IMG/VR virus record: IMGVR_UViG_3300028800_000003
Span: 55,740-119,739 of that record
Direction: 5' to 3' (one strand)
Length of the DNA: 64,000 bases
Source: a virus
The notes beneath the pieces are model-generated. The model did not search any database. It was not told where the DNA came from and worked only from the letters and a program-made list of their open reading frames with translations. Numbering within the stretch: position 1 is the first letter of the stretch; every line of letters begins with the position of its first letter. Both the position numbers and the translations under genes were made by a program. Below, in pieces: positions 489 to 55,178 of the stretch.

Positions 489-685
489 ACCGCAAACCAA
501 TCTATCACGAGACCAACCCGCGTTTCCGAGTCATCTCTGTGCCAAACGGTCAATGGCAGGCGCAACGTCGCCTCGACGTTCCGTCATCGAATACGGTGGA
601 CCCGTGGGCCAACATCGGCGGCCCTGATCCGATCGATGTCGCGCAGGCGCGGATGCAGGCTGCGGCCGAGACGAAGAAAAAATGA
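485..685 (+). CDS. hypothetical protein
   Basis: 66-aa ORF with ATGA overlaps on both sides. Confidence 0.65.
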   Translation: MNRKPIYHETNPRFRVISVPNGQWQAQRRLDVPSSNTVDPWANIGGPDPIDVAQARMQAAAETKKK

Positions 686-1014
686 CCCGCCGCACGACCG
701 AACGTCTGATCGATCTCCTGGAGACCGTCAACGCCACGGCGATCGACAACGACGGCGGCAAGCCCGGTGAATTTCTCGCCGCGCTCTGCCGCGAGGCAGC
801 GCAGCGTCTGCGCGATCTGCAAAAAGGGCAACGTTTCACGACGGCGCAAGACCGGCACGTTGCCGAACTTGCTGCTCACGTCGAGGAATTGGGTCCGCCG
901 CTGCGTAGCTTCGACGACACATTCAGCGCGACGACCGTCATCATGGACAAATTCTTCCCGCGCCGCAACGACGATGGCATGCCGATCATCAACGAAGGCG
1001 ATCACGGCTGTTGA
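682..1014 (+). CDS. hypothetical protein
   Basis: 110-aa ORF with an ATGA overlap. Confidence 0.65.
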   Translation: MTRRTTERLIDLLETVNATAIDNDGGKPGEFLAALCREAAQRLRDLQKGQRFTTAQDRHVAELAAHVEELGPPLRSFDDTFSATTVIMDKFFPRRNDDGMPIINEGDHGC

Positions 1015-1019
1015 TCTAC

Positions 1020-1174
1020 GGAAGGTAGCATAGACCAGGTTTTAATGCAGGTGCAGTGTATTCCAGTAGGCGAGTGTTTGCCGTCAGCATAGCGGGCATT
1101 CTGTAAAGCGGGACGCCGCGAGCCGAAAAGTAAGCTGCACGTCGAAGAATGGTTCAAGCCCATTCCCTTCCACC
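1020..1174 (+). ncRNA. tRNA-like RNA with an expanded anticodon-arm domain
   Basis: Acceptor GGAAGG(1020-25)/CCTTCC(1166-71) followed by ACC; UA linker; D-stem GCAT/ATGC with GG in the loop; GTGCAG/CTGCAC stem enclosing 78 nt; T-stem GAATGG/CCATTC with loop TTCAAGC; terminator directly downstream. Confidence 0.75.
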
Positions 1175-1178
1175 GAAC

Positions 1179-1219
1179 AAAAAAGAGCCGCCCCAGGGAA
1201 TCCCCGAGGCGGCTTTTTT
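1179..1219. terminator. bidirectional rho-independent terminator
   Basis: AAAAAAGAGCCGCC...GGCGGCTTTTTT hairpin with A and T tracts. Confidence 0.8.
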
Positions 1220-1451
1220 GTCAGATTGTCGCACCCGAAAAGCGCGATGAATTGCGAACTTGTTGCCGCCGACTTTATTTGCTCGACCAGAGAAACACGC
1301 ATGACATCGTGTCAAGGTTTTGCGATCTGATAACGGTTGCTGCGATGTCACGCGGACTTGCGCGCCGAAAACCGACCCGTTTCGCCAATTCCAGATAGTG
1401 CGATGATTATATTAGCAGCATCAACCCCTATCAAAGGAGCAAACAAACAAG

Positions 1452-2153
1452 ATGCTGCACGATCCTATCGTCGACGTGACTCACACGGTCTATTGCGGGC
1501 CGAAAGCGATTGCAATTCTGACCGGCGTTCCGGTGTCACGCATAGAGAAGATGTTGCGGCGCTGCCGTTCCGACAAGGGACGCGATAGCCGCGGCAGAAA
1601 GATACCGATCCGCGGCACATATAGTAGCCAAGTAGTCAAGGTCTTGCGCCGGCTCGGATGCAAGGTGGAGGAGATAAGTCACTGCGAGCCGACGTTGGGC
1701 CGCTTCATCACCGACACCAATACATTCAAGGCGCCATGTCTGGTGATGACGCGGAATCATTTCACGGTGACATTCGATGGCAAGTGTTACGATCACTACG
1801 CCGGCAAGCCGACGGTGCGCGTGGTGAGAGGATGGCGAGTAGAAGCCCCGGCGACGCCGAAATTCACCTGCGGAGCACCGGCACCAGCGAGGAAGCCTAA
1901 GCCCGCGCGTGATCTGCGGGCCGAGCGCCACGCCAAGGTGATGGCCAGGATCAAGAGACTGGAGACCAAGATTAAGCGCGCCACCACGGCGCTGAAAAAG
2001 GCCCAACGACAGGCGCGCTACTATCAGCGCGTCAGTCGCAGCCCCGACCAATCAGACCGTAGTCAACCTCGCTCGGATCGGAATACACCTCCCAGTGCCG
2101 CCATCCTTTCGGGCACCAGAATCCCCAGTCACGAGTCTTCGGTCCCAGCATGA
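1452..2153 (+). CDS. hypothetical protein with a peptidase C39-like N-terminus and basic coiled-coil C-terminus
   Basis: RBS AAGGAG; YCGPKAIAILTG...NHF...YD. The 3' end overlaps the convergent gene by ~120 nt. Confidence 0.6.
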   Translation: MLHDPIVDVTHTVYCGPKAIAILTGVPVSRIEKMLRRCRSDKGRDSRGRKIPIRGTYSSQVVKVLRRLGCKVEEISHCEPTLGRFITDTNTFKAPCLVMTRNHFTVTFDGKCYDHYAGKPTVRVVRGWRVEAPATPKFTCGAPAPARKPKPARDLRAERHAKVMARIKRLETKIKRATTALKKAQRQARYYQRVSRSPDQSDRSQPRSDRNTPPSAAILSGTRIPSHESSVPA

Positions 2154-2550
2154 ACAGCGTGAGCGCTGTCGGCGTCACCAGCTCGATGCGATGCGAGAAT
2201 TTGGCCGATCGGAAGACGACATCACCGGCGCGGATCATCCGCACGCTGTGTTGCTCCTTGTCGCGCGGATCGAAGCCGTTCTGCGCATAGACCTCGCGGT
2301 AGACGCCGTCGAGAATCAGCGACATCGAGGCTCGCGGATGATCGTGCAAGGCGCGATCATCGTCGTCATTCTTGAACAGATGGATATAGGCGTTGGGCAA
2401 TAGCTTCGCCCGCGGCATCGTGATCCAACGCAGCATGTAGGGAGCTTCGCGTGGCCCGATGATGTTGTCAGGCTCACGCGATTCGATGACACGCATGGCG
2501 CGCTTGCGGATTGGATCGAACACCGCCTTCGGCAGATGAACGATCGGCAT
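2032..2550 (-). CDS. cupin-like phage protein
   Basis: DDDRALHDHP...SLILDGVYRE...FSHRIEL...RDWGF. Confidence 0.75.
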   Translation of the reverse strand: MPIVHLPKAVFDPIRKRAMRVIESREPDNIIGPREAPYMLRWITMPRAKLLPNAYIHLFKNDDDDRALHDHPRASMSLILDGVYREVYAQNGFDPRDKEQHSVRMIRAGDVVFRSAKFSHRIELVTPTALTLFMLGPKTRDWGFWCPKGWRHWEVYSDPSEVDYGLIGRGCD

Positions 2551-3056
2551 CAGGCGGCCTCCAGATAGTCGGCCGCAACACGTAGGATAGACGGATCGTC
2601 CTTGGCGTGACCGAGAATGGCATTACAGTTATGGCAAAGCAAACCGCGCACAGCCTTTGTCTTGTGGCAGTGATCAACGAAAAGACTGATGTGCTTTGAA
2701 TTACCGATAGGCGATGGACAGATGGCGCAGTGGCCGCCCTGCTTTTTCAAAAGCGCCTGATAGTCTTCGATGGTGAGGCCGTATCTCGCCAAATTACCCG
2801 ACCGGACAAGCGCCGGATTGGCGGCATACCGCTTGCGCATGTATGAGGCATGCTGAGCCAGTTGTTCTGGCGTTCGCTTCGCCTTCTTCACCGCAGGATT
2901 GCGCTCGACGTATGAACGTCGACACTCGCGCGAACATTCGACGCACTGGCGACTTTGAACGAAGCGAGCTGCAAGATGGCCTTGTAGGCATGGCCGCCCC
3001 GTGCAGTATTGCTTCAAGCCGCGTGACAATGCGTCCTTGCGGGACACAACATTCAT
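2550..3056 (-). CDS. recombination endonuclease VII-family nuclease, possibly a homing endonuclease
   Basis: QGGHCAIC...VDHCHKTKAVRGLLCHNCNAILG; N-terminal YCTGRPCLQGH...CVEC zinc motif; start at MNVVSRK. Confidence 0.85.
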   Translation of the reverse strand: MNVVSRKDALSRGLKQYCTGRPCLQGHLAARFVQSRQCVECSRECRRSYVERNPAVKKAKRTPEQLAQHASYMRKRYAANPALVRSGNLARYGLTIEDYQALLKKQGGHCAICPSPIGNSKHISLFVDHCHKTKAVRGLLCHNCNAILGHAKDDPSILRVAADYLEAA

Positions 3057-3057
3057 C

Positions 3058-4389
3058 CTACGCTGCCTCTTTGAACTCGGTGGCTTTGCGGGCCGCCGAC
3101 GGGATGTTGATGCGGAGACGGCCAATCTCCCCTTCCTCGCGGTGAATTGTGATCGATGAAAGCGATTTTCCAGATGTGTAGCCAGACGCCTCGTGATGCG
3201 CGTCATTGGCCGCGAGCGTCTGGAACGACTCGACCCGCACGTCACCGATCTCCTTTACGGACTCGTGGTGAATGTGCCCGAAATAGAAATAGTGATAGGC
3301 AGTGGAGCCCCAATCTTCGCGAGCACGCACCGCCATCGCCATCGCCATATCCTGCGGTTTGCAGCGGTAGCCATGCGTGGCGCCGATCAGTGTGTTGCCG
3401 AACCGATGGAAAAAGAATTCGGACGGCGAGCCCCACACCTTGACGCGCGGATTGTTGGCGTAGGCTTCGATCAGCGCGACATCGAGGGCGATGCTGGAAT
3501 GCGGGTCGTGGTTGCCGGGAATGTTCACGACCAGCACGTCATGATGCTTCTGGAGCGCCAGATCGACGATGTTCTTCATCAACTGGACGCCGGCCACCAA
3601 AATCTTTCGATAGCGGCTATCGACATCGAGCTTATTCTTGTGGCCTGGAGTGAGGTTGGTGCTGTCGTCTGTGTGCTGCCAGTCGCCGAGGTTGAGAACG
3701 ATGGCCTGACGGCTATGTGGAGCCTGGGAGACCATACGGCTGGCGCACGCCATGAGGCGCTGTTTGCCGATCTCCAGGTCGTAGGGTTCGCCAGTTTCCT
3801 TGCCCCAAGCGAGCAAGCCATTGTGCTGGTCGGCAATCGGGTACACCGAGAGCAGGTCAACATCAGTCAGGTGTGGCGGATGGATTAATGGAACCGGGGC
3901 GATTTCGTCCTTAAAGACCTCCTTGATGGCCTCTACCAGGAAACGATTCTCATCGTCCTTGGTCCGAATCCAGGCCTGTTTGAGAATGCCCTCCGGCGTG
4001 ATGTGGTAGGTGCCCTTGCCGAGCACCTTGCCCTTGGGCATCTCGAAGACAACGCCCTCGCCTTCGTCCGGCGAATTGATCTGGGATACCGTTTGCGCCG
4101 TGACGTTGCCGCTGCCGTCGGTCGTGGTCGAGGTCTTGTTGATGACGAAGCCGGGCAGCACCGGTTTGAAGCCAAGCAGTCCGCGTTCGGCCGCGGCGTA
4201 CAGTCGGCGCCGGAAGCTGGTCTTGGCCATGTTGTTGAGGGAGCGGGCAGCCGCGGCCTTGTTCTGGCCGTTTGCCTCGTAAGCGGCGGCGACGGCTTTA
4301 AGGTCGTCGTCGGAAAAGGATTCACCTTGCAATGGCTTAACTCCGTGGGGGCAGATAGGGGTCGCGGGTATTTTCTGTTTGACCCGCAC
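3058..4389 (-). CDS. calcineurin-like metallophosphoesterase with N-terminal HTH
   Basis: IADQH, LGDWQH, PGNHD, THG and FGHIHH motifs; NKAAAARSL HTH. The true start may be TTG at 4332. Confidence 0.85.
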   Translation of the reverse strand: MRVKQKIPATPICPHGVKPLQGESFSDDDLKAVAAAYEANGQNKAAAARSLNNMAKTSFRRRLYAAAERGLLGFKPVLPGFVINKTSTTTDGSGNVTAQTVSQINSPDEGEGVVFEMPKGKVLGKGTYHITPEGILKQAWIRTKDDENRFLVEAIKEVFKDEIAPVPLIHPPHLTDVDLLSVYPIADQHNGLLAWGKETGEPYDLEIGKQRLMACASRMVSQAPHSRQAIVLNLGDWQHTDDSTNLTPGHKNKLDVDSRYRKILVAGVQLMKNIVDLALQKHHDVLVVNIPGNHDPHSSIALDVALIEAYANNPRVKVWGSPSEFFFHRFGNTLIGATHGYRCKPQDMAMAMAVRAREDWGSTAYHYFYFGHIHHESVKEIGDVRVESFQTLAANDAHHEASGYTSGKSLSSITIHREEGEIGRLRINIPSAARKATEFKEAA

Positions 4390-13184: not shown

Positions 13185-15518
13185 TTAGTTGATGATGATG
13201 GCGTTGTTGTTGCCGACGGTATTCACGCCGGGGCTGGAGTAGCCGGACACGTTGGAAACGCCGGTGAGGTTTACGGTAGAACCGTTCTCAGACAAAACGT
13301 TGCCGTCGCCGTTGTTGGTGCTGAGCTGAACATTCGTTCCGCCGTTGACGCCGGCTGTGTCGAAGGCGGCAATACCCCAGTGTGAGTTTCCGGCGATCGT
13401 GACCGCGTTGTCCAAAAGCGCCAACTGCGAATTCTGAACGTAGAAACCGGCGTCGTCGTTGTAGGAGAATGAGCCGCCGATGATTGCGGCATTGGACCCG
13501 TTCTCGACCAGCATTCCACTGCCGCCATTATACATCGAGTAGATGTTGACAGTTCCAACGTCACCGCCAAAGCCGGCCTGCTGAACGATGATTCCGTTGT
13601 CATCATTGCTGTACGAACAAATTTCGATGTTCTGTCCGACCAGCCCCTGAACGATGAACGATCCCCACGCGGCACCGATACCGGGACCAATGCACCCTGT
13701 CGCGCTGACGAAACCCTGGAATGCCATCAGGCCGCCGTTGGTGGCGATGCCATATCCGCCGCAGCCATGCGCAGAGACGTTGCTCAATGTGATATTTTCA
13801 AGAGCAAAGCACAGCGCAACGTATTCTTCGTTGGCGCCACGGTCTCCGACCAGCAAGATATTATAAAGACCCCAGCCTGGTGACTGAAAATTGAGTCCGC
13901 CGCTTGCCGTGAAATCAAGTTCAGTGTCGTAACAGTTGCGCAATGCCGTCAGGTCGGCGGTACGATCTGTTGCTTTGTTGCCGGTCGTTGAAAAGATCGA
14001 GTGGCTTGGGCTCGATTTCATGCCAGCGCCGAAGATGCCGATGCGATCGGAGTTCGGATGCGACAGAGCGATCTGCGACGATCCTGCTGAAATTTGACCG
14101 GAAGCGAGGTTCAAGCTCACGTATCCATTCGGCGTGATGCGGAACTTGCCGAGATATTCCATTGCCACAGCAAGGCTGGAAAAGTTCGCGCCCTCACCGT
14201 ACACCGAATATGAGACGCTGGAGTCGATAACAAATCCGTTGAACAACTGGAATGCGGAACCGTTGTATACCAGGAATGCGATCTGTCCGGCCGACAACAT
14301 TCCGGCGGCCAGCGGCAAGCCGCTGCAATCAACGATTGGAACCGCAGCCAACGAATTTACGGCAATCGTCGAAGCACCGGTGTTGTTAGCGGCGATCTTG
14401 ACCTCAACCGTAGTGCCGGCTGGCAGCGACGTGATTGCTGGCGTAAATGAAGCGACGACGGTATTGGCCGTGCCAGTGTCCTGCGCATACGGGATGTCGA
14501 TCGTGTAGGTGTTGTTGTTGGTCGTTGACGAGGTAAAGCCCTCGAAGTTCTCAACCTGGAACGCCGAGCCGTCATAGACCAGCGACACAACCATGCCGGC
14601 GTTGATGTCGCCCGAGGAAAGCTGAGCGCCGTTGGCGCGATGCACGGCGACGGTGCCGAGGTTGTTGACGTTTATCGTGGTGACATCGGTGTTGGTGTGG
14701 TTCACCTTCACCGAGAGCCGCATGCCCGGCTCGTATTGCGCCGGTGTCGGCGCAACCGTAACAACCATGTTGTTGACGGTTCCGGTGTCGACCGCATACG
14801 TCCAGGTCTGATTCTGAACACCAGTCGGGATCAGCGGCAGCTTGCCGTTGGTGGCGAGAAACGGCGCCAAATAGTAGGGCAAGATATTGCCGGCCGTGAT
14901 CGAGGTCGCGCCGTTGGCCACCGTGATCGTGAACAGACCGGTCCAGCCCGCATCCGGCGACGGCGCCAATTGCGTGCCGGTCGTGGCCGCGATACCGGCC
15001 TTGATCTGATAGGCGACGCCGCCATAGCGCACGGTGTTCTGTGCGGTGCCGGCATTGGCGGGGCCGGAGAAGGGATCGGATGGATCGGCCGCATCGAAAT
15101 ACGGCAGCACTGTCGCGCCGCCGTCCATGTCCTGATACTGGACCTCGACAAGGAAGACCTGGCTGTAACCGGTCGTGCCTGGAGGCGTGATGCCCATCGT
15201 GACCGACTGGCCGACGCCTGCCGCGGTGCCGTTGGCGACGAACTGGATGCCCTGTTTCAGAATCGAGGTCGCAGTATTCGCCGGAAGCGAAGACCAGATC
15301 GATTGCTCCAGGTTTTCCAACTGATAGATGTTGCCGGGCGTCAGGATGATGTTGAGCGATCCCGGTACGGTCGGAGTCACCGTGAAACCGTCGACAAGCG
15401 TCGGCGTGCCCAGGATCGTTTGCGACAGCTCGGCAAGAGCCACCATCGCGTTTTGCTGGGCTTGCAGCAGGTCTGTTTCGAGCGGAGTCTGACCCGCGTA
15501 AATGGTTTTGCGATCCAT
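13185..15518 (-). CDS. tail fibre/spike protein with C-terminal beta-helix
   Basis: MDRKTIYAGQTPLETDLL baseplate-anchor N-terminus; two YAxDTGTxN repeats; N/G-rich beta-helix repeats. Confidence 0.8.
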   Translation of the reverse strand: MDRKTIYAGQTPLETDLLQAQQNAMVALAELSQTILGTPTLVDGFTVTPTVPGSLNIILTPGNIYQLENLEQSIWSSLPANTATSILKQGIQFVANGTAAGVGQSVTMGITPPGTTGYSQVFLVEVQYQDMDGGATVLPYFDAADPSDPFSGPANAGTAQNTVRYGGVAYQIKAGIAATTGTQLAPSPDAGWTGLFTITVANGATSITAGNILPYYLAPFLATNGKLPLIPTGVQNQTWTYAVDTGTVNNMVVTVAPTPAQYEPGMRLSVKVNHTNTDVTTINVNNLGTVAVHRANGAQLSSGDINAGMVVSLVYDGSAFQVENFEGFTSSTTNNNTYTIDIPYAQDTGTANTVVASFTPAITSLPAGTTVEVKIAANNTGASTIAVNSLAAVPIVDCSGLPLAAGMLSAGQIAFLVYNGSAFQLFNGFVIDSSVSYSVYGEGANFSSLAVAMEYLGKFRITPNGYVSLNLASGQISAGSSQIALSHPNSDRIGIFGAGMKSSPSHSIFSTTGNKATDRTADLTALRNCYDTELDFTASGGLNFQSPGWGLYNILLVGDRGANEEYVALCFALENITLSNVSAHGCGGYGIATNGGLMAFQGFVSATGCIGPGIGAAWGSFIVQGLVGQNIEICSYSNDDNGIIVQQAGFGGDVGTVNIYSMYNGGSGMLVENGSNAAIIGGSFSYNDDAGFYVQNSQLALLDNAVTIAGNSHWGIAAFDTAGVNGGTNVQLSTNNGDGNVLSENGSTVNLTGVSNVSGYSSPGVNTVGNNNAIIIN

Positions 15519-54653: not shown

Positions 54654-55178
54654 TCAAAATTCGGTGCCGAAGACGCGATCCCACAAGCTCGTAACGACAC
54701 CGTAGTTGGTGTCATCCACGGCATGGTGGATGGCGTGACGCCGTTTCAGACGCCACAGCGGATGACCGCGGCGAATGTCGGCGTAATGGAACAAGGTATG
54801 CAACGCGGCATAGACCACGTAGCCGATCGAGAAGCCGATCATGGCGGCGCTCGACTGCAAGCCGAAGGCCAGCCAGGAGCCGGCATACATCAACGTGGTG
54901 AGCAGCGGATGCAGCGCGATGTAGTCGCGCGGCTCGTCATGGTGCATTGCGTGAAAGCGACGCAGCAACAGCGGCGCCTCGTGTAGCACCCAGCGATGCA
55001 CCACGTATTCGTAGAGGCTCCAGACGAACAGGCCGATGCCTGCCTCGCCGAACCATTTCAATGACACGCCGTGGATGACAGAAAGGATCAGCAAGCCCAG
55101 CGTGGCCGGTGCCGTGATCAGAAAGTCGGCGTAATATTCCCACTTGGTCAGCTTGACCAGCCGCTGAAATTTGATCAT
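54654..55178 (-). CDS. sterol desaturase / fatty acid hydroxylase family protein
   Basis: His boxes HRWVLH, HAMHH, HTLFH and HAIHH; NYGVVTSLWDRVFGT. Confidence 0.9.
   Translation of the reverse strand: MIKFQRLVKLTKWEYYADFLITAPATLGLLILSVIHGVSLKWFGEAGIGLFVWSLYEYVVHRWVLHEAPLLLRRFHAMHHDEPRDYIALHPLLTTLMYAGSWLAFGLQSSAAMIGFSIGYVVYAALHTLFHYADIRRGHPLWRLKRRHAIHHAVDDTNYGVVTSLWDRVFGTEF

What the first reader, a model, noticed from the sequence alone, without database searches (positions are those of the whole stretch)
1020..1174. tRNA-shaped RNA with a 6/6 acceptor-T fold and a 78-nt structured domain replacing the anticodon loop
Seen in sequence: a complete tRNA scaffold. It has a GGAAGG/CCTTCC acceptor, discriminator A plus CC (no encoded final A), UA at the 8-9 positions, a 4-bp D-stem with GG in the loop, and a T-loop TTCAAGC. 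The acceptor and T stems are 6+6 bp rather than 7+5, which keeps the 12-bp coaxial stack. The anticodon stem GTGCAG/CTGCAC encloses 1057-1134, which folds: GAGTGTTTGC/GCGGGCATTC (10 bp with G.U pairs), GCGG-GACG-CCGC, and GGC/GCC. CTGTAAA (1101-1107), the canonical tRNA-Tyr anticodon loop, sits in a junction, and G1-C72 with A73 are Tyr-like. A terminator follows directly. It lacks G3.U70 and a tag ORF, so it is not tmRNA; it is too short for a group I intron; and its ends are free, unlike Y RNA. Inference: an undescribed phage tRNA mimic that could be processed by RNase P and CCA addition, acting as a decoy for synthetases or anticodon nucleases, or as a scaffold for a functional RNA domain.
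Basis: partly seen in the sequence, partly recalled or inferred. Interest (0 to 1): 0.85.

Follow-up and report, generated by a model that had tools for sequence, protein, structure and literature searches.

The report
Orphan tRNA-shaped RNA in a prophage
A soil phage that integrates into its host's chromosome carries one 155-base gene that keeps the body of a tRNA but has 78 extra bases where the codon-reading loop should be; I found no relative of it, so its job is unproven.

Summary
The tRNA scaffold is real. A rule-based tRNA descriptor finds only this locus and the two true tRNAs in the 119,739-bp phage genome, and finds nothing in 60 simulated genomes. A covariance model built from this RNA alone ranks real tRNAs highest, including T4's.

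It is not a standard tRNA. ARAGORN and Rfam miss it. None of 1316 in-silico excisions gives an ARAGORN tRNA, against 324 of 1080 in a positive control. It ends in ACC-G, while both phage tRNAs encode CCA.

The 78-nt insert folds no better than shuffled sequence (z -0.15), so "structured domain" is unsupported.

It is not the attachment site. That site is a tRNA-Val 3' half next to the integrase, about 1.8 kb upstream.

I found no homologue in 17 related viral records, 302 sampled genomes of the likely host's order and family, GenBank phages or plasmids. Covariation is therefore untestable.

Best reading (0.42): a non-decoding, tRNA-scaffolded stable RNA. The main rival is a disrupted tRNA relic (0.30).

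This scan has noted the same design before on other phage DNA; none of those notes matched this sequence.

The parts
1020..1174 (+). tRNA-shaped RNA gene (155 nt), single copy in the phage genome
   Evidence: Sequence. The minimum-energy fold is a cloverleaf. Single copy. Descriptor scan. R1 cross-hits to true tRNAs.
1020..1025 (+). Acceptor stem, 5' strand (6 bp with 1166-1171)
   Evidence: All six pairs are Watson-Crick. Position 3-70 is A-U, not G-U.
1026..1050 (+). U8-A9, 4-bp D stem (1028-1031/1045-1048), 13-nt D loop (A...GG...A), then a 2-nt connector A1049 G1050
   Evidence: The minimum-energy fold adds a small extra helix inside the D loop; the centroid fold shortens it to 3 bp.
1051..1056 (+). 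Anticodon-stem equivalent, 5' strand (6 bp with 1135-1140; a U-G pair 1057/1134 extends it)
1057..1134 (+). 78-nt insert in place of the anticodon loop. Predicted helices: 1059-1062/1129-1132, 1069-1071/1122-1124, a 10-bp hairpin 1072-1101 and a 4-bp hairpin 1108-1119. CTGTAAA lies at 1101-1107.
   Evidence: The helices appear in the minimum-energy fold. The insert alone is not more stable than shuffles (z -0.15). No Rfam match.
1141..1146 (+). 6-nt variable region
1147..1165 (+). T arm: 6-bp stem with a 7-nt loop TTCAAGC; the loop-closing pair is G-C
1166..1174 (+). Acceptor 3' strand, discriminator A1172, C1173 C1174. The next base is G, so CCA is not encoded.
   Evidence: Both phage tRNAs encode CCA.
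1186..1214 (.). Bidirectional intrinsic terminator hairpin, with an A-run before it and a T-run after it
   Evidence: listed on the minus strand.: -24.3 kcal/mol on +, -33.1 on -, with z -4.85 and -7.11.
682..1014 (+). Upstream 110-aa gene whose stop codon ends 5 nt before the RNA. It belongs to a small family with no Pfam or PHROG name. In other elements this family sits next to tRNA-Lys att sites, without this RNA.

Best explanation
This is a tRNA-derived gene for a non-decoding, tRNA-shaped RNA. It keeps the parts of a tRNA that processing enzymes read: a 12-bp acceptor/T stack (here split 6+6), the T loop, the D-loop GG elbow and an A-CC end. Where the anticodon loop should be it carries 78 nt of other sequence.

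Inferred mechanism (none of these steps is shown):
1. It is transcribed together with the att-proximal operon (secreted RlpA-like protein, a 178-aa protein, the 110-aa gene) up to the bidirectional terminator.
2. Host RNase P cuts at G1020, freeing the RNA and setting the 3' end of the upstream mRNA.
3. The 3' trailer is trimmed, and the host CCA-adding enzyme may complete the end.
4. The tRNA body gives a stable small RNA that cannot read codons. It either presents the insert as cargo or occupies a tRNA-binding protein.
For: The scaffold is specific and intact.
- 22 Watson-Crick pairs across four helices with no mismatch, and U8, A14, GG, A21, G53-C61 and T-loop TTCAA all present.
- Descriptor scan: 3 of 3 genome hits are this RNA and the two true tRNAs; 0 hits in 60 simulated genomes.
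- R1 ranks true tRNAs highest in three unrelated sets of sequence.
- Four G-U pairs in the 10-bp insert hairpin would be C-A mismatches on the other strand, so the fold is specific to the + strand.
- The layout is compact: 5 nt after the upstream stop codon, with a terminator 12 nt after the end.

It cannot decode as it stands.
- There is no 7-nt anticodon loop.
- ARAGORN with default thresholds, with or without introns, finds nothing.
- 0 of 1316 excisions give an ARAGORN tRNA. The same scan on the CcrColossus split tRNA-Phe gives 324 of 1080.

There is precedent for phage tRNA-like stable RNAs and tRNA bodies with inserts.
- T4 rnaC is annotated as a small stable RNA and has a T arm.
- Two CcrColossus tRNA-Phe bodies carry 200- and 172-nt inserts.
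- Lak phage tRNAs have 'enigmatic introns' (PMC6784885, passages).

It is not the att site: attP is the tRNA-Val 3' half beside the integrase.
Against: - No homologue was found, so there is no conservation or covariation evidence.
- The insert folds no better than shuffled sequence.
- No sigma-70-like promoter was found on the + strand in 400-1600.
- CCA is not encoded, although both phage tRNAs encode it, and the phage has no CCA-adding enzyme gene.
- Exact complementary words to the rest of the phage genome are close to the number chance predicts: 26 against 16.7 expected 10-mers, 6 against 4.1 11-mers, 1 against 1.0 12-mers.
- Relatives of the upstream gene lack the RNA, so it is a recent gain or a loss-prone element.
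- The terminator fits the minus strand better.
Confidence: 0.42

Rival explanations
1. It is a relic: a former phage or captured tRNA gene disabled by a 78-nt insertion in its anticodon loop, not yet decayed and without function. It might be a scar of integration or recombination at an anticodon-loop att core.
For: - The insert is not more structured than chance.
- CCA is not encoded, unlike both phage tRNAs.
- The geometry is non-canonical: a 6/6 split, a 2-nt connector and a 6-nt variable region. tRNA finders fail on it.
- No homologue was found.
- It lies in the variable, att-proximal end of a prophage. This phage's own crossover lies inside tRNA-Val, about 27 nt into the gene. The neighbouring gene family sits beside tRNA-Lys att fragments in other elements, once in tandem with a tRNA 3' half between two copies.
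Against: - All four helices are free of mismatches and all tertiary-contact bases are kept.
- The 6/6 split keeps the 12-bp stack, which looks compensated, not decayed.
- No direct repeat longer than a few bases flanks the insert (by eye).
- No host-lineage tRNA shares its T arm: in 5 genomes the hits at 3 mismatches or fewer are no more than the control. It is therefore not a fresh copy of a host tRNA from those lineages.
Confidence: 0.3
2. It is an intron-bearing decoding tRNA (Tyr-GUA or Leu-UAA). The insert would be removed by an unknown cleavage activity and the halves joined by the phage RtcB ligase.
For: - The phage encodes RtcB (Pfam 1.9e-36, PHROG 'tRNA splicing ligase' 5.7e-88).
- Phage tRNAs with unclassified inserts exist.
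- At 80% thresholds ARAGORN calls tRNA-Leu(taa) with a 73-nt intron whose 5' exon ends in U and whose intron ends in G.
- GUA triplets lie at 1058-1060 and 1103-1105.
Against: - The ARAGORN call appears only at 80% of default thresholds or lower, and it uses a shifted acceptor with two mismatches.
- 0 of 1316 excisions give a tRNA at default thresholds.
- No group I intron or self-cleaving ribozyme match at E up to 10. 73-78 nt is far below known group I sizes (recalled: about 200 nt and above).
- No splicing-endonuclease gene (PF01974) in the phage, and no 3-4-3 bulge-helix-bulge in the fold (by eye).
- Candidate spliced loops would have G32 and C38, which pair, or U37 (my reading).
- RtcB in phages is more usually tied to tRNA repair (established knowledge).
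Confidence: 0.1
3. It is a cis-acting processing signal, not a trans-acting RNA. A tRNA-like 'punctuation' mark would make RNase P cut off the 3' end of the att-proximal mRNA and so set that mRNA's stability. The released RNA would be a by-product.
For: - It starts 5 nt after the stop codon of the 110-aa gene, and no + strand promoter was found.
- The features RNase P reads are exactly the ones kept.
- RNase P cuts within polycistronic mRNAs and at t-elements (established knowledge; PMC1920247 seen in a listing only).
Against: A minimal acceptor/T hairpin would suffice. The D arm, a long anticodon arm and 78 extra nt are not needed for this role. Relatives of the gene manage without it.
Confidence: 0.1
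4. It is a DNA site: a second attachment site or tRNA-like integration target, for this phage or for a satellite.
For: Integrases often target tRNA genes, and the insert lies at the anticodon loop, a common crossover place (established knowledge).
Against: - The phage has one tyrosine integrase (1 match). Its attP is identified elsewhere: the prophage junction contig is 99.94% identical to the phage from genome position 54922 onward, and the junction lies inside tRNA-Val.
- In that lysogen contig the RNA is intact and identical, 1.8 kb inside the prophage.
Confidence: 0.03

Closest known systems
Bacteriophage T4 species 1 RNA (rnaC; NC_000866 70908-71046, annotated 'small, stable RNA')
   Same: A phage-encoded small RNA of about 140 nt with a tRNA-type T arm and paired ends, larger than a tRNA, not a decoder and of unknown role.
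   Different: No sequence or model similarity: R1 gives 3.1 bits, E 1.6. rnaC lies inside a tRNA cluster of a lytic phage. Mine is solitary, behind a protein gene near the att end of a temperate phage, and keeps a full D arm.
Phage tRNA genes with unclassified inserts: Lak megaphage 'enigmatic introns' (PMC6784885) and the two split tRNA-Phe of Caulobacter phage CcrColossus (JX100810, about 241462-241998)
   Same: A tRNA body interrupted at the anticodon arm by sequence that matches no Rfam family.
   Different: Those bodies are canonical. ARAGORN -i calls both CcrColossus genes at default thresholds with a Phe anticodon and encoded CCA. Mine fails at default thresholds, has no usable anticodon loop, is split 6/6 and lacks the final A. 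The CcrColossus pair sits directly before a methyltransferase and a cupin gene on the same strand. My cupin gene is 860 nt away and convergent.
tmRNA (tRNA-like domain with a large insert)
   Same: Acceptor, T arm and D-loop region kept, with the anticodon arm replaced by other RNA.
   Different: Position 3-70 is A-U, not G-U. ARAGORN calls no tmRNA even at 70% thresholds, and Rfam gives no match. At 155 nt it is far shorter than tmRNA (recalled: over 230 nt). A D stem is present.
Engineered tRNA scaffolds for recombinant RNA (design recalled from the literature; PMC3401473 seen in a listing only)
   Same: Cargo RNA is placed on the anticodon stem of a tRNA body so that cellular tRNA enzymes process and stabilise it.
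   Different: That is an artificial design. Here neither processing nor any cargo function is shown.
YrlA / bacterial and phage Y RNAs
   Same: A tRNA mimic joined to a second module.
   Different: In Y RNAs the ends close the non-tRNA helix and the acceptor is looped (recalled). Here the ends are at the acceptor. The phage has no Ro/TROVE gene and there is no Rfam match.

Membership tests
Canonical tRNA (Rfam RF00005 / ARAGORN) | Detected by a tRNA covariance model or by ARAGORN at default thresholds | tested here: not met
   Rfam with gathering and with E up to 10 gives no tRNA match at 900-1300. ARAGORN with -t, -m and -i finds none.
Canonical tRNA (Rfam RF00005 / ARAGORN) | 7-nt anticodon loop on a 5-bp stem | tested here: not met
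   78 nt lie between the stem strands.
Canonical tRNA (Rfam RF00005 / ARAGORN) | Conserved tertiary-contact bases (U8, A14, G18-G19, A21, G53-C61, T54-T55-C56, A58) | tested here: met
   Read under the 6/6 numbering. The descriptor scan required most of them.
Canonical tRNA (Rfam RF00005 / ARAGORN) | 7/5 acceptor/T split | tested here: not met
   The split is 6/6 in the minimum-energy fold. A 7/5 reading needs a U-C mismatch and leaves one base before the D stem.
Intron-bearing tRNA (group I) | Group I core recognised by Rfam; size of about 200 nt or more | tested here: not met
   No Intron_gpI match at E up to 10. The insert is 73-78 nt. The size limit is recalled.
Intron-bearing tRNA (protein-spliced, bulge-helix-bulge) | 3-4-3 bulge-helix-bulge motif and a splicing endonuclease | tested here: not met
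   No PF01974 in the phage. The fold has a 1-nt bulge, a 4-bp helix and a 6x4 loop. The host genome could not be tested.
Intron-bearing tRNA (any) | Removing some segment leaves a recognisable tRNA | tested here: not met
   0 of 1316 excisions, against 324 of 1080 in the control.
tmRNA | G3-U70, tag reading frame, detection by ARAGORN or Rfam | tested here: not met
   Position 3-70 is A-U. ARAGORN -m at 70% thresholds finds none. No Rfam match. An 8-codon frame ending at TAA 1104-1106 exists but has no support.
YrlA / Y RNA | Ro (TROVE) partner gene; ends closing the Ro-binding helix | tested here: not met
   No PF05731 in the phage. The ends are at the acceptor.
Cupin/methyltransferase-linked phage tRNA look-alikes (known only from this scan's notes; CcrColossus example checked) | Sits directly upstream, on the same strand, of the methyltransferase and/or cupin gene | tested here: not met
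   A cupin-like gene (PHROG 4786, 5.8e-43) lies at 2035-2550 on the minus strand, convergent, with a 233-aa gene between. The closest cupin relatives (41-44% identity) have no RNA beside them.
Cupin/methyltransferase-linked phage tRNA look-alikes (known only from this scan's notes; CcrColossus example checked) | Similarity of the RNA in sequence or model | tested here: not met
   R1 gives no hit on the CcrColossus RNAs (best hit in L037 is 6.8 bits, elsewhere in the locus).
Phage attP (tRNA 3' fragment) | Identity with a host tRNA ending at the prophage junction | tested here: not met
   The junction lies in tRNA-Val at genome position 54922. The RNA is 1.8 kb inside the prophage and intact.

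The most novel reading that the evidence does not exclude
This RNA is a working member of a broad, uncatalogued class of phage RNAs that use the tRNA body as a chassis for processing and stability, with non-decoding RNA in place of the anticodon loop. This one would use a 6/6 acceptor/T split, which I did not see among the configurations named in the passages I read of a review of non-canonical tRNAs (7/5, 8/5, 9/4, 8/4, 9/3; PMC7609411). It would be made in lysogens from the att-proximal operon and would act by occupying a tRNA-binding host or defence protein.
Probability: 0.25. Interest if true: 0.7.

Novelty: new variant of a known kind. Interest (0 to 1): 0.4.

Why it matters
If it is expressed and processed, it would be a natural version of the engineered 'tRNA scaffold'. 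It would also be a tRNA body with an unreported 6/6 helix split, and it would add a temperate alphaproteobacterial phage to the phages that make tRNA look-alikes. That would give a handle on what such RNAs do: protein decoy, RNA cargo or mRNA punctuation.

As it stands it is one sequence with no relatives and no expression data. Its value is as a well-defined candidate, not as a result.

Tried and rejected
Homologue searches, all negative:
- blastn of 1000-1230 against GenBank phages: no match.
- The same against plasmids: 2 records, matching only the terminator at E 0.7.
- Exact 28-mer of the T arm and acceptor in IMG/VR: 0 matches.
- Gapped D-arm/T-loop pattern in IMG/VR: 2 stretches, both chance. 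One spans two adjacent tRNAs of a giant virus; the other is AT-rich sequence.
- R1 on 17 viral records reached through the tail sheath (16) and the downstream gene (1): 0 of 17.
- R1 on 2 genomes with integrase relatives: 0 of 2.
- R1 on 151 genomes of that order: 0 of 151.
- R1 on 151 genomes of the family that best matches the host flank: 0 of 151.
- R1 on 13 loci around relatives of the neighbouring genes: only the identical copy in L024.
All of these are samples, and R1 is a single-sequence model.

Neighbour-gene route:
- The upstream 110-aa protein has 14 relatives besides the window's own.
- Its relatives found in IMG/VR (2 loci) and in JGI metagenomes (8 loci, one of them the same phage) carry no such RNA downstream.
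- The closest relative (P0002, 51% identity) is on a Logan contig that I could not fetch.

Sequencing runs: no RNA holder was listed. Six DNA runs from rhizosphere metagenomes hold the stretch. I laid four of them: one near-identical contig spans the whole stretch laid, and the other three give only short pieces, with no difference listed inside the RNA. There is therefore no variation to use.

Antisense idea (as for the P1 C4 and P4 CI RNAs, recalled): exact complementary words are close to the number chance predicts.

Cupin link (a lead from the scan's notes): 93 GenBank phage records hold a relative of the cupin. Of the six loci I looked at, only CcrColossus has tRNA bodies before it. I rejected this as a link for this RNA.

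Host tRNA origin: no T-arm match above the control in 5 genomes.

Rfam on the six cupin loci: 0 matches at E up to 0.01. This also shows that Rfam misses the split tRNA-Phe genes.

Literature:
- Four searches found no description of this design in bacteriophages beyond the items cited.
- I read passages of PMC6784885 and PMC7609411. Other papers were seen only as listings.
- Supplements are closed. The intron sequences of the Lak phages are in supplements I could not see, so I could not compare them.

A possible 4-bp loop-loop match (CGUC 1082-1085 with GACG 1112-1115) was seen by eye only and is compatible with chance.
Full report
WHAT IS THERE

It has:
- a 6-bp acceptor (1020-1025 with 1166-1171);
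- T1026 A1027;
- a 4-bp D stem with a 13-nt loop that starts and ends in A and holds GG;
- two connector bases;
- a 6-bp stem (1051-1056 with 1135-1140) that encloses 78 nt;
- a 6-nt variable region;
- a 6-bp T stem with loop TTCAAGC;
- then A-C-C followed by G.

The unconstrained minimum-energy fold gives this same cloverleaf and the same insert helices (-51.3 kcal/mol, z -2.33, 1 of 200 shuffles as good).

IS THE SCAFFOLD MORE THAN CHANCE?

Yes. I used two tests.

1. A descriptor scan. I wrote a descriptor from general tRNA rules that allows a 7/5 or 6/6 split and an insert of up to 200 nt. On both strands of the whole 119,739-bp genome it hits three loci: this RNA and the two ARAGORN tRNAs. 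In 60 first-order Markov genomes it hits none. The descriptor was written after I had seen the RNA, so it is somewhat fitted to it.

2. A covariance model. Model R1 was built from this sequence alone.
   - In the window plus 15.7 kb upstream, its best non-self hits are the two phage tRNAs, at 16.8 and 14.9 bits.
   - In 13 other loci its best non-self hits are tRNA-Val and two tRNA-Lys.
   - In 2601 bases of phage T4, its top seven hits are seven of the eight annotated tRNAs.
   - One hit of 14.7 bits at window 14706-14787 (-) is not a tRNA, so the model is not perfectly specific.

WHAT IS NOT SUPPORTED

The insert alone (1057-1134) folds at -20.9 kcal/mol. That is z -0.15, and 82 of 200 shuffles fold as well. 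The helices can be drawn, but they are no better than random sequence of the same composition gives.

The CTGTAAA 7-mer is there. However, a pyrimidine-U-NNN-purine-N pattern is expected several times in 78 nt by chance, so the Tyr reading has no weight.

The terminator is real but bidirectional, and it is stronger on the minus strand.

CONTEXT

The window is the second half of an IMG/VR virus record with direct terminal repeats. The record encodes:
- a tail sheath and a portal;
- one tyrosine integrase;
- RtcB;
- two tRNAs, Asn and Pro, both with encoded CCA.

A tRNA 3' half lies right after the integrase stop codon. A metagenome contig (L024) holds a complete tRNA-Val(cac). From 27 nt into that tRNA onward, it is 99.94% identical to the phage over 3231 bases, and that stretch includes an identical copy of the RNA.

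So the phage is temperate and integrates into tRNA-Val. The RNA lies 1.8 kb inside the prophage end, behind genes for a secreted RlpA-like protein, a 178-aa protein with a signal-like N terminus, and a 110-aa protein of no named family. It is therefore not the att site.

The host is probably a large-genome member of the order Hyphomicrobiales.

IS IT A tRNA WITH AN INTRON?

- ARAGORN finds nothing at default thresholds, with or without introns. Only at 80% of the thresholds or lower does it call a tRNA-Leu(taa) with a 73-nt intron, using a shifted acceptor with two mismatches.
- I removed every segment starting at 1052-1079 and ending at 1095-1141 in silico. ARAGORN called a tRNA in 0 of 1316 cases.
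- The same procedure on the first of two split tRNA-Phe genes of Caulobacter phage CcrColossus gave 324 of 1080. ARAGORN -i calls both of those genes at default thresholds. The method works, so the body of my RNA is deviant in itself.
- Rfam gives no group I intron, ribozyme, tmRNA or Y RNA match at E up to 10.
- The phage has no splicing endonuclease, no Ro protein and no CCA-adding enzyme gene.

RELATIVES

I found none. The searches are listed under Tried and rejected. In brief, I searched:
- GenBank phages and plasmids;
- IMG/VR, by two patterns;
- 17 related viral records;
- 302 sampled genomes of the likely host order and family, plus 2 more genomes;
- 10 loci around relatives of the upstream gene.

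The other sequencing runs that hold the phage show no difference within the RNA.

LEADS FROM THE SCAN'S OWN NOTES

Searches list many phage 'tRNA bodies with inserts' on other DNA. Several are said to sit before a cupin and a methyltransferase gene. By sequence, none of these notes matches mine.

I checked the lead as follows.
- My window has a cupin-like gene (PHROG 4786) 860 nt away, but it is convergent, with another gene between.
- The three closest cupin relatives in GenBank phages have no RNA beside them.
- CcrColossus does have two split tRNA-Phe genes directly before a methyltransferase and a cupin gene. Those are canonical bodies with a kept anticodon and CCA, and R1 does not hit them.

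I conclude that my RNA shares the design but not the family or the gene link.

MECHANISM

What the sequence keeps is what RNase P and the CCA-adding enzyme read: a 12-bp acceptor/T stack, the T loop and elbow, and an unpaired A-CC end (established knowledge of these enzymes). What it lacks is what the ribosome and most synthetases read.

No + strand promoter was found, and the gene starts 5 nt after a stop codon. I therefore infer co-transcription with the att-proximal operon, followed by release by RNase P. The product would be a stable RNA that cannot decode.

I cannot tell whether it acts through its insert, as a protein decoy, or only as an mRNA-end signal. I found no antisense target above chance.

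The main rival is a disabled tRNA relic.
- In favour of the relic: the unstructured insert, the missing CCA, the lack of relatives, and the position in a variable prophage end.
- Against it: four helices without a mismatch, all tertiary-contact bases kept, and a 6/6 split that preserves the 12-bp stack.

VERDICT

This is a real, tRNA-derived, non-canonical element. It is probably a non-decoding tRNA-shaped RNA (0.42), possibly a relic (0.30), and less likely an intron-bearing tRNA (0.10), a pure processing signal (0.10) or a DNA site (0.03).

The design is not new: T4 rnaC, the Lak phage introns, CcrColossus and many notes in this scan show it. This sequence, its 6/6 split and its setting in a temperate phage are a new variant. 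Interest is moderate (0.4) until expression data or relatives are in hand.

Noticed in passing
window 1180-1434 (-): A strong sigma-70-like promoter on the minus strand (TTGATA-17-TATAAT, 11 of 12 matches, 1434 to 1406) faces the same bidirectional terminator. That gives a promoter-to-terminator cassette of about 210 nt with no convincing ORF. It folds with z -2.43, and 3 of 200 shuffles fold as well. Candidate small RNA, convergent with the tRNA-shaped RNA.
   Followed up: partly
L003 14905-14970 (genome about 54922-54969, upstream of the window); L024 907-981: The phage attP is the 3' part of tRNA-Val(cac), directly after the integrase stop codon. A metagenome contig shows the integrated junction, with host DNA up to 27 nt into the tRNA.
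   Followed up: yes
window 682-1014 (+); L026, L027, L031: The 110-aa protein family has a conserved N-terminal ~45 residues, and many members end in G-D/N-H/R-G-C. In other elements it sits immediately beside tRNA-Lys(ttt) att sites. In L027 two copies flank a tRNA-Lys 3' fragment, which suggests tandem elements. It has no Pfam or PHROG name.
   Followed up: partly
L037 1803-2340 (Caulobacter phage CcrColossus JX100810, about 241462-241998): Two tandem tRNA-Phe(gaa) genes, each with a 172-200-nt insert at position 32, lie in a 675-nt gap that the record leaves unannotated, directly before a 'putative rRNA methyltransferase' and a cupin gene. ARAGORN finds them only with -i, and Rfam finds nothing.
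   Followed up: partly
window 2035-2550 (-): A cupin-like gene (PHROG 4786 'cysteine dioxygenase', E 5.8e-43) with relatives in 93 GenBank phage records, mostly Mycobacterium phages. It is followed upstream on the minus strand by an endonuclease VII gene (2553-3245) and an exonuclease gene (3061-4389).
   Followed up: partly
L003 8628-10067 (genome 48627-50069, upstream of the window): A phage RtcB RNA ligase (Pfam 1.9e-36; PHROG 'tRNA splicing ligase' 5.7e-88), about 6.7 kb from the RNA.
   Followed up: partly
window 1082-1085 and 1112-1115 (+): The loop of the 10-bp insert hairpin begins CGUC, and the tetraloop of the second hairpin is GACG. This is a possible 4-bp loop-loop contact, seen by eye and compatible with chance.
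   Followed up: no
window 14706-14787 (-): Model R1 gives a 14.7-bit, cloverleaf-like hit inside a tail-protein ORF. ARAGORN does not call it. It is probably chance.
   Followed up: no
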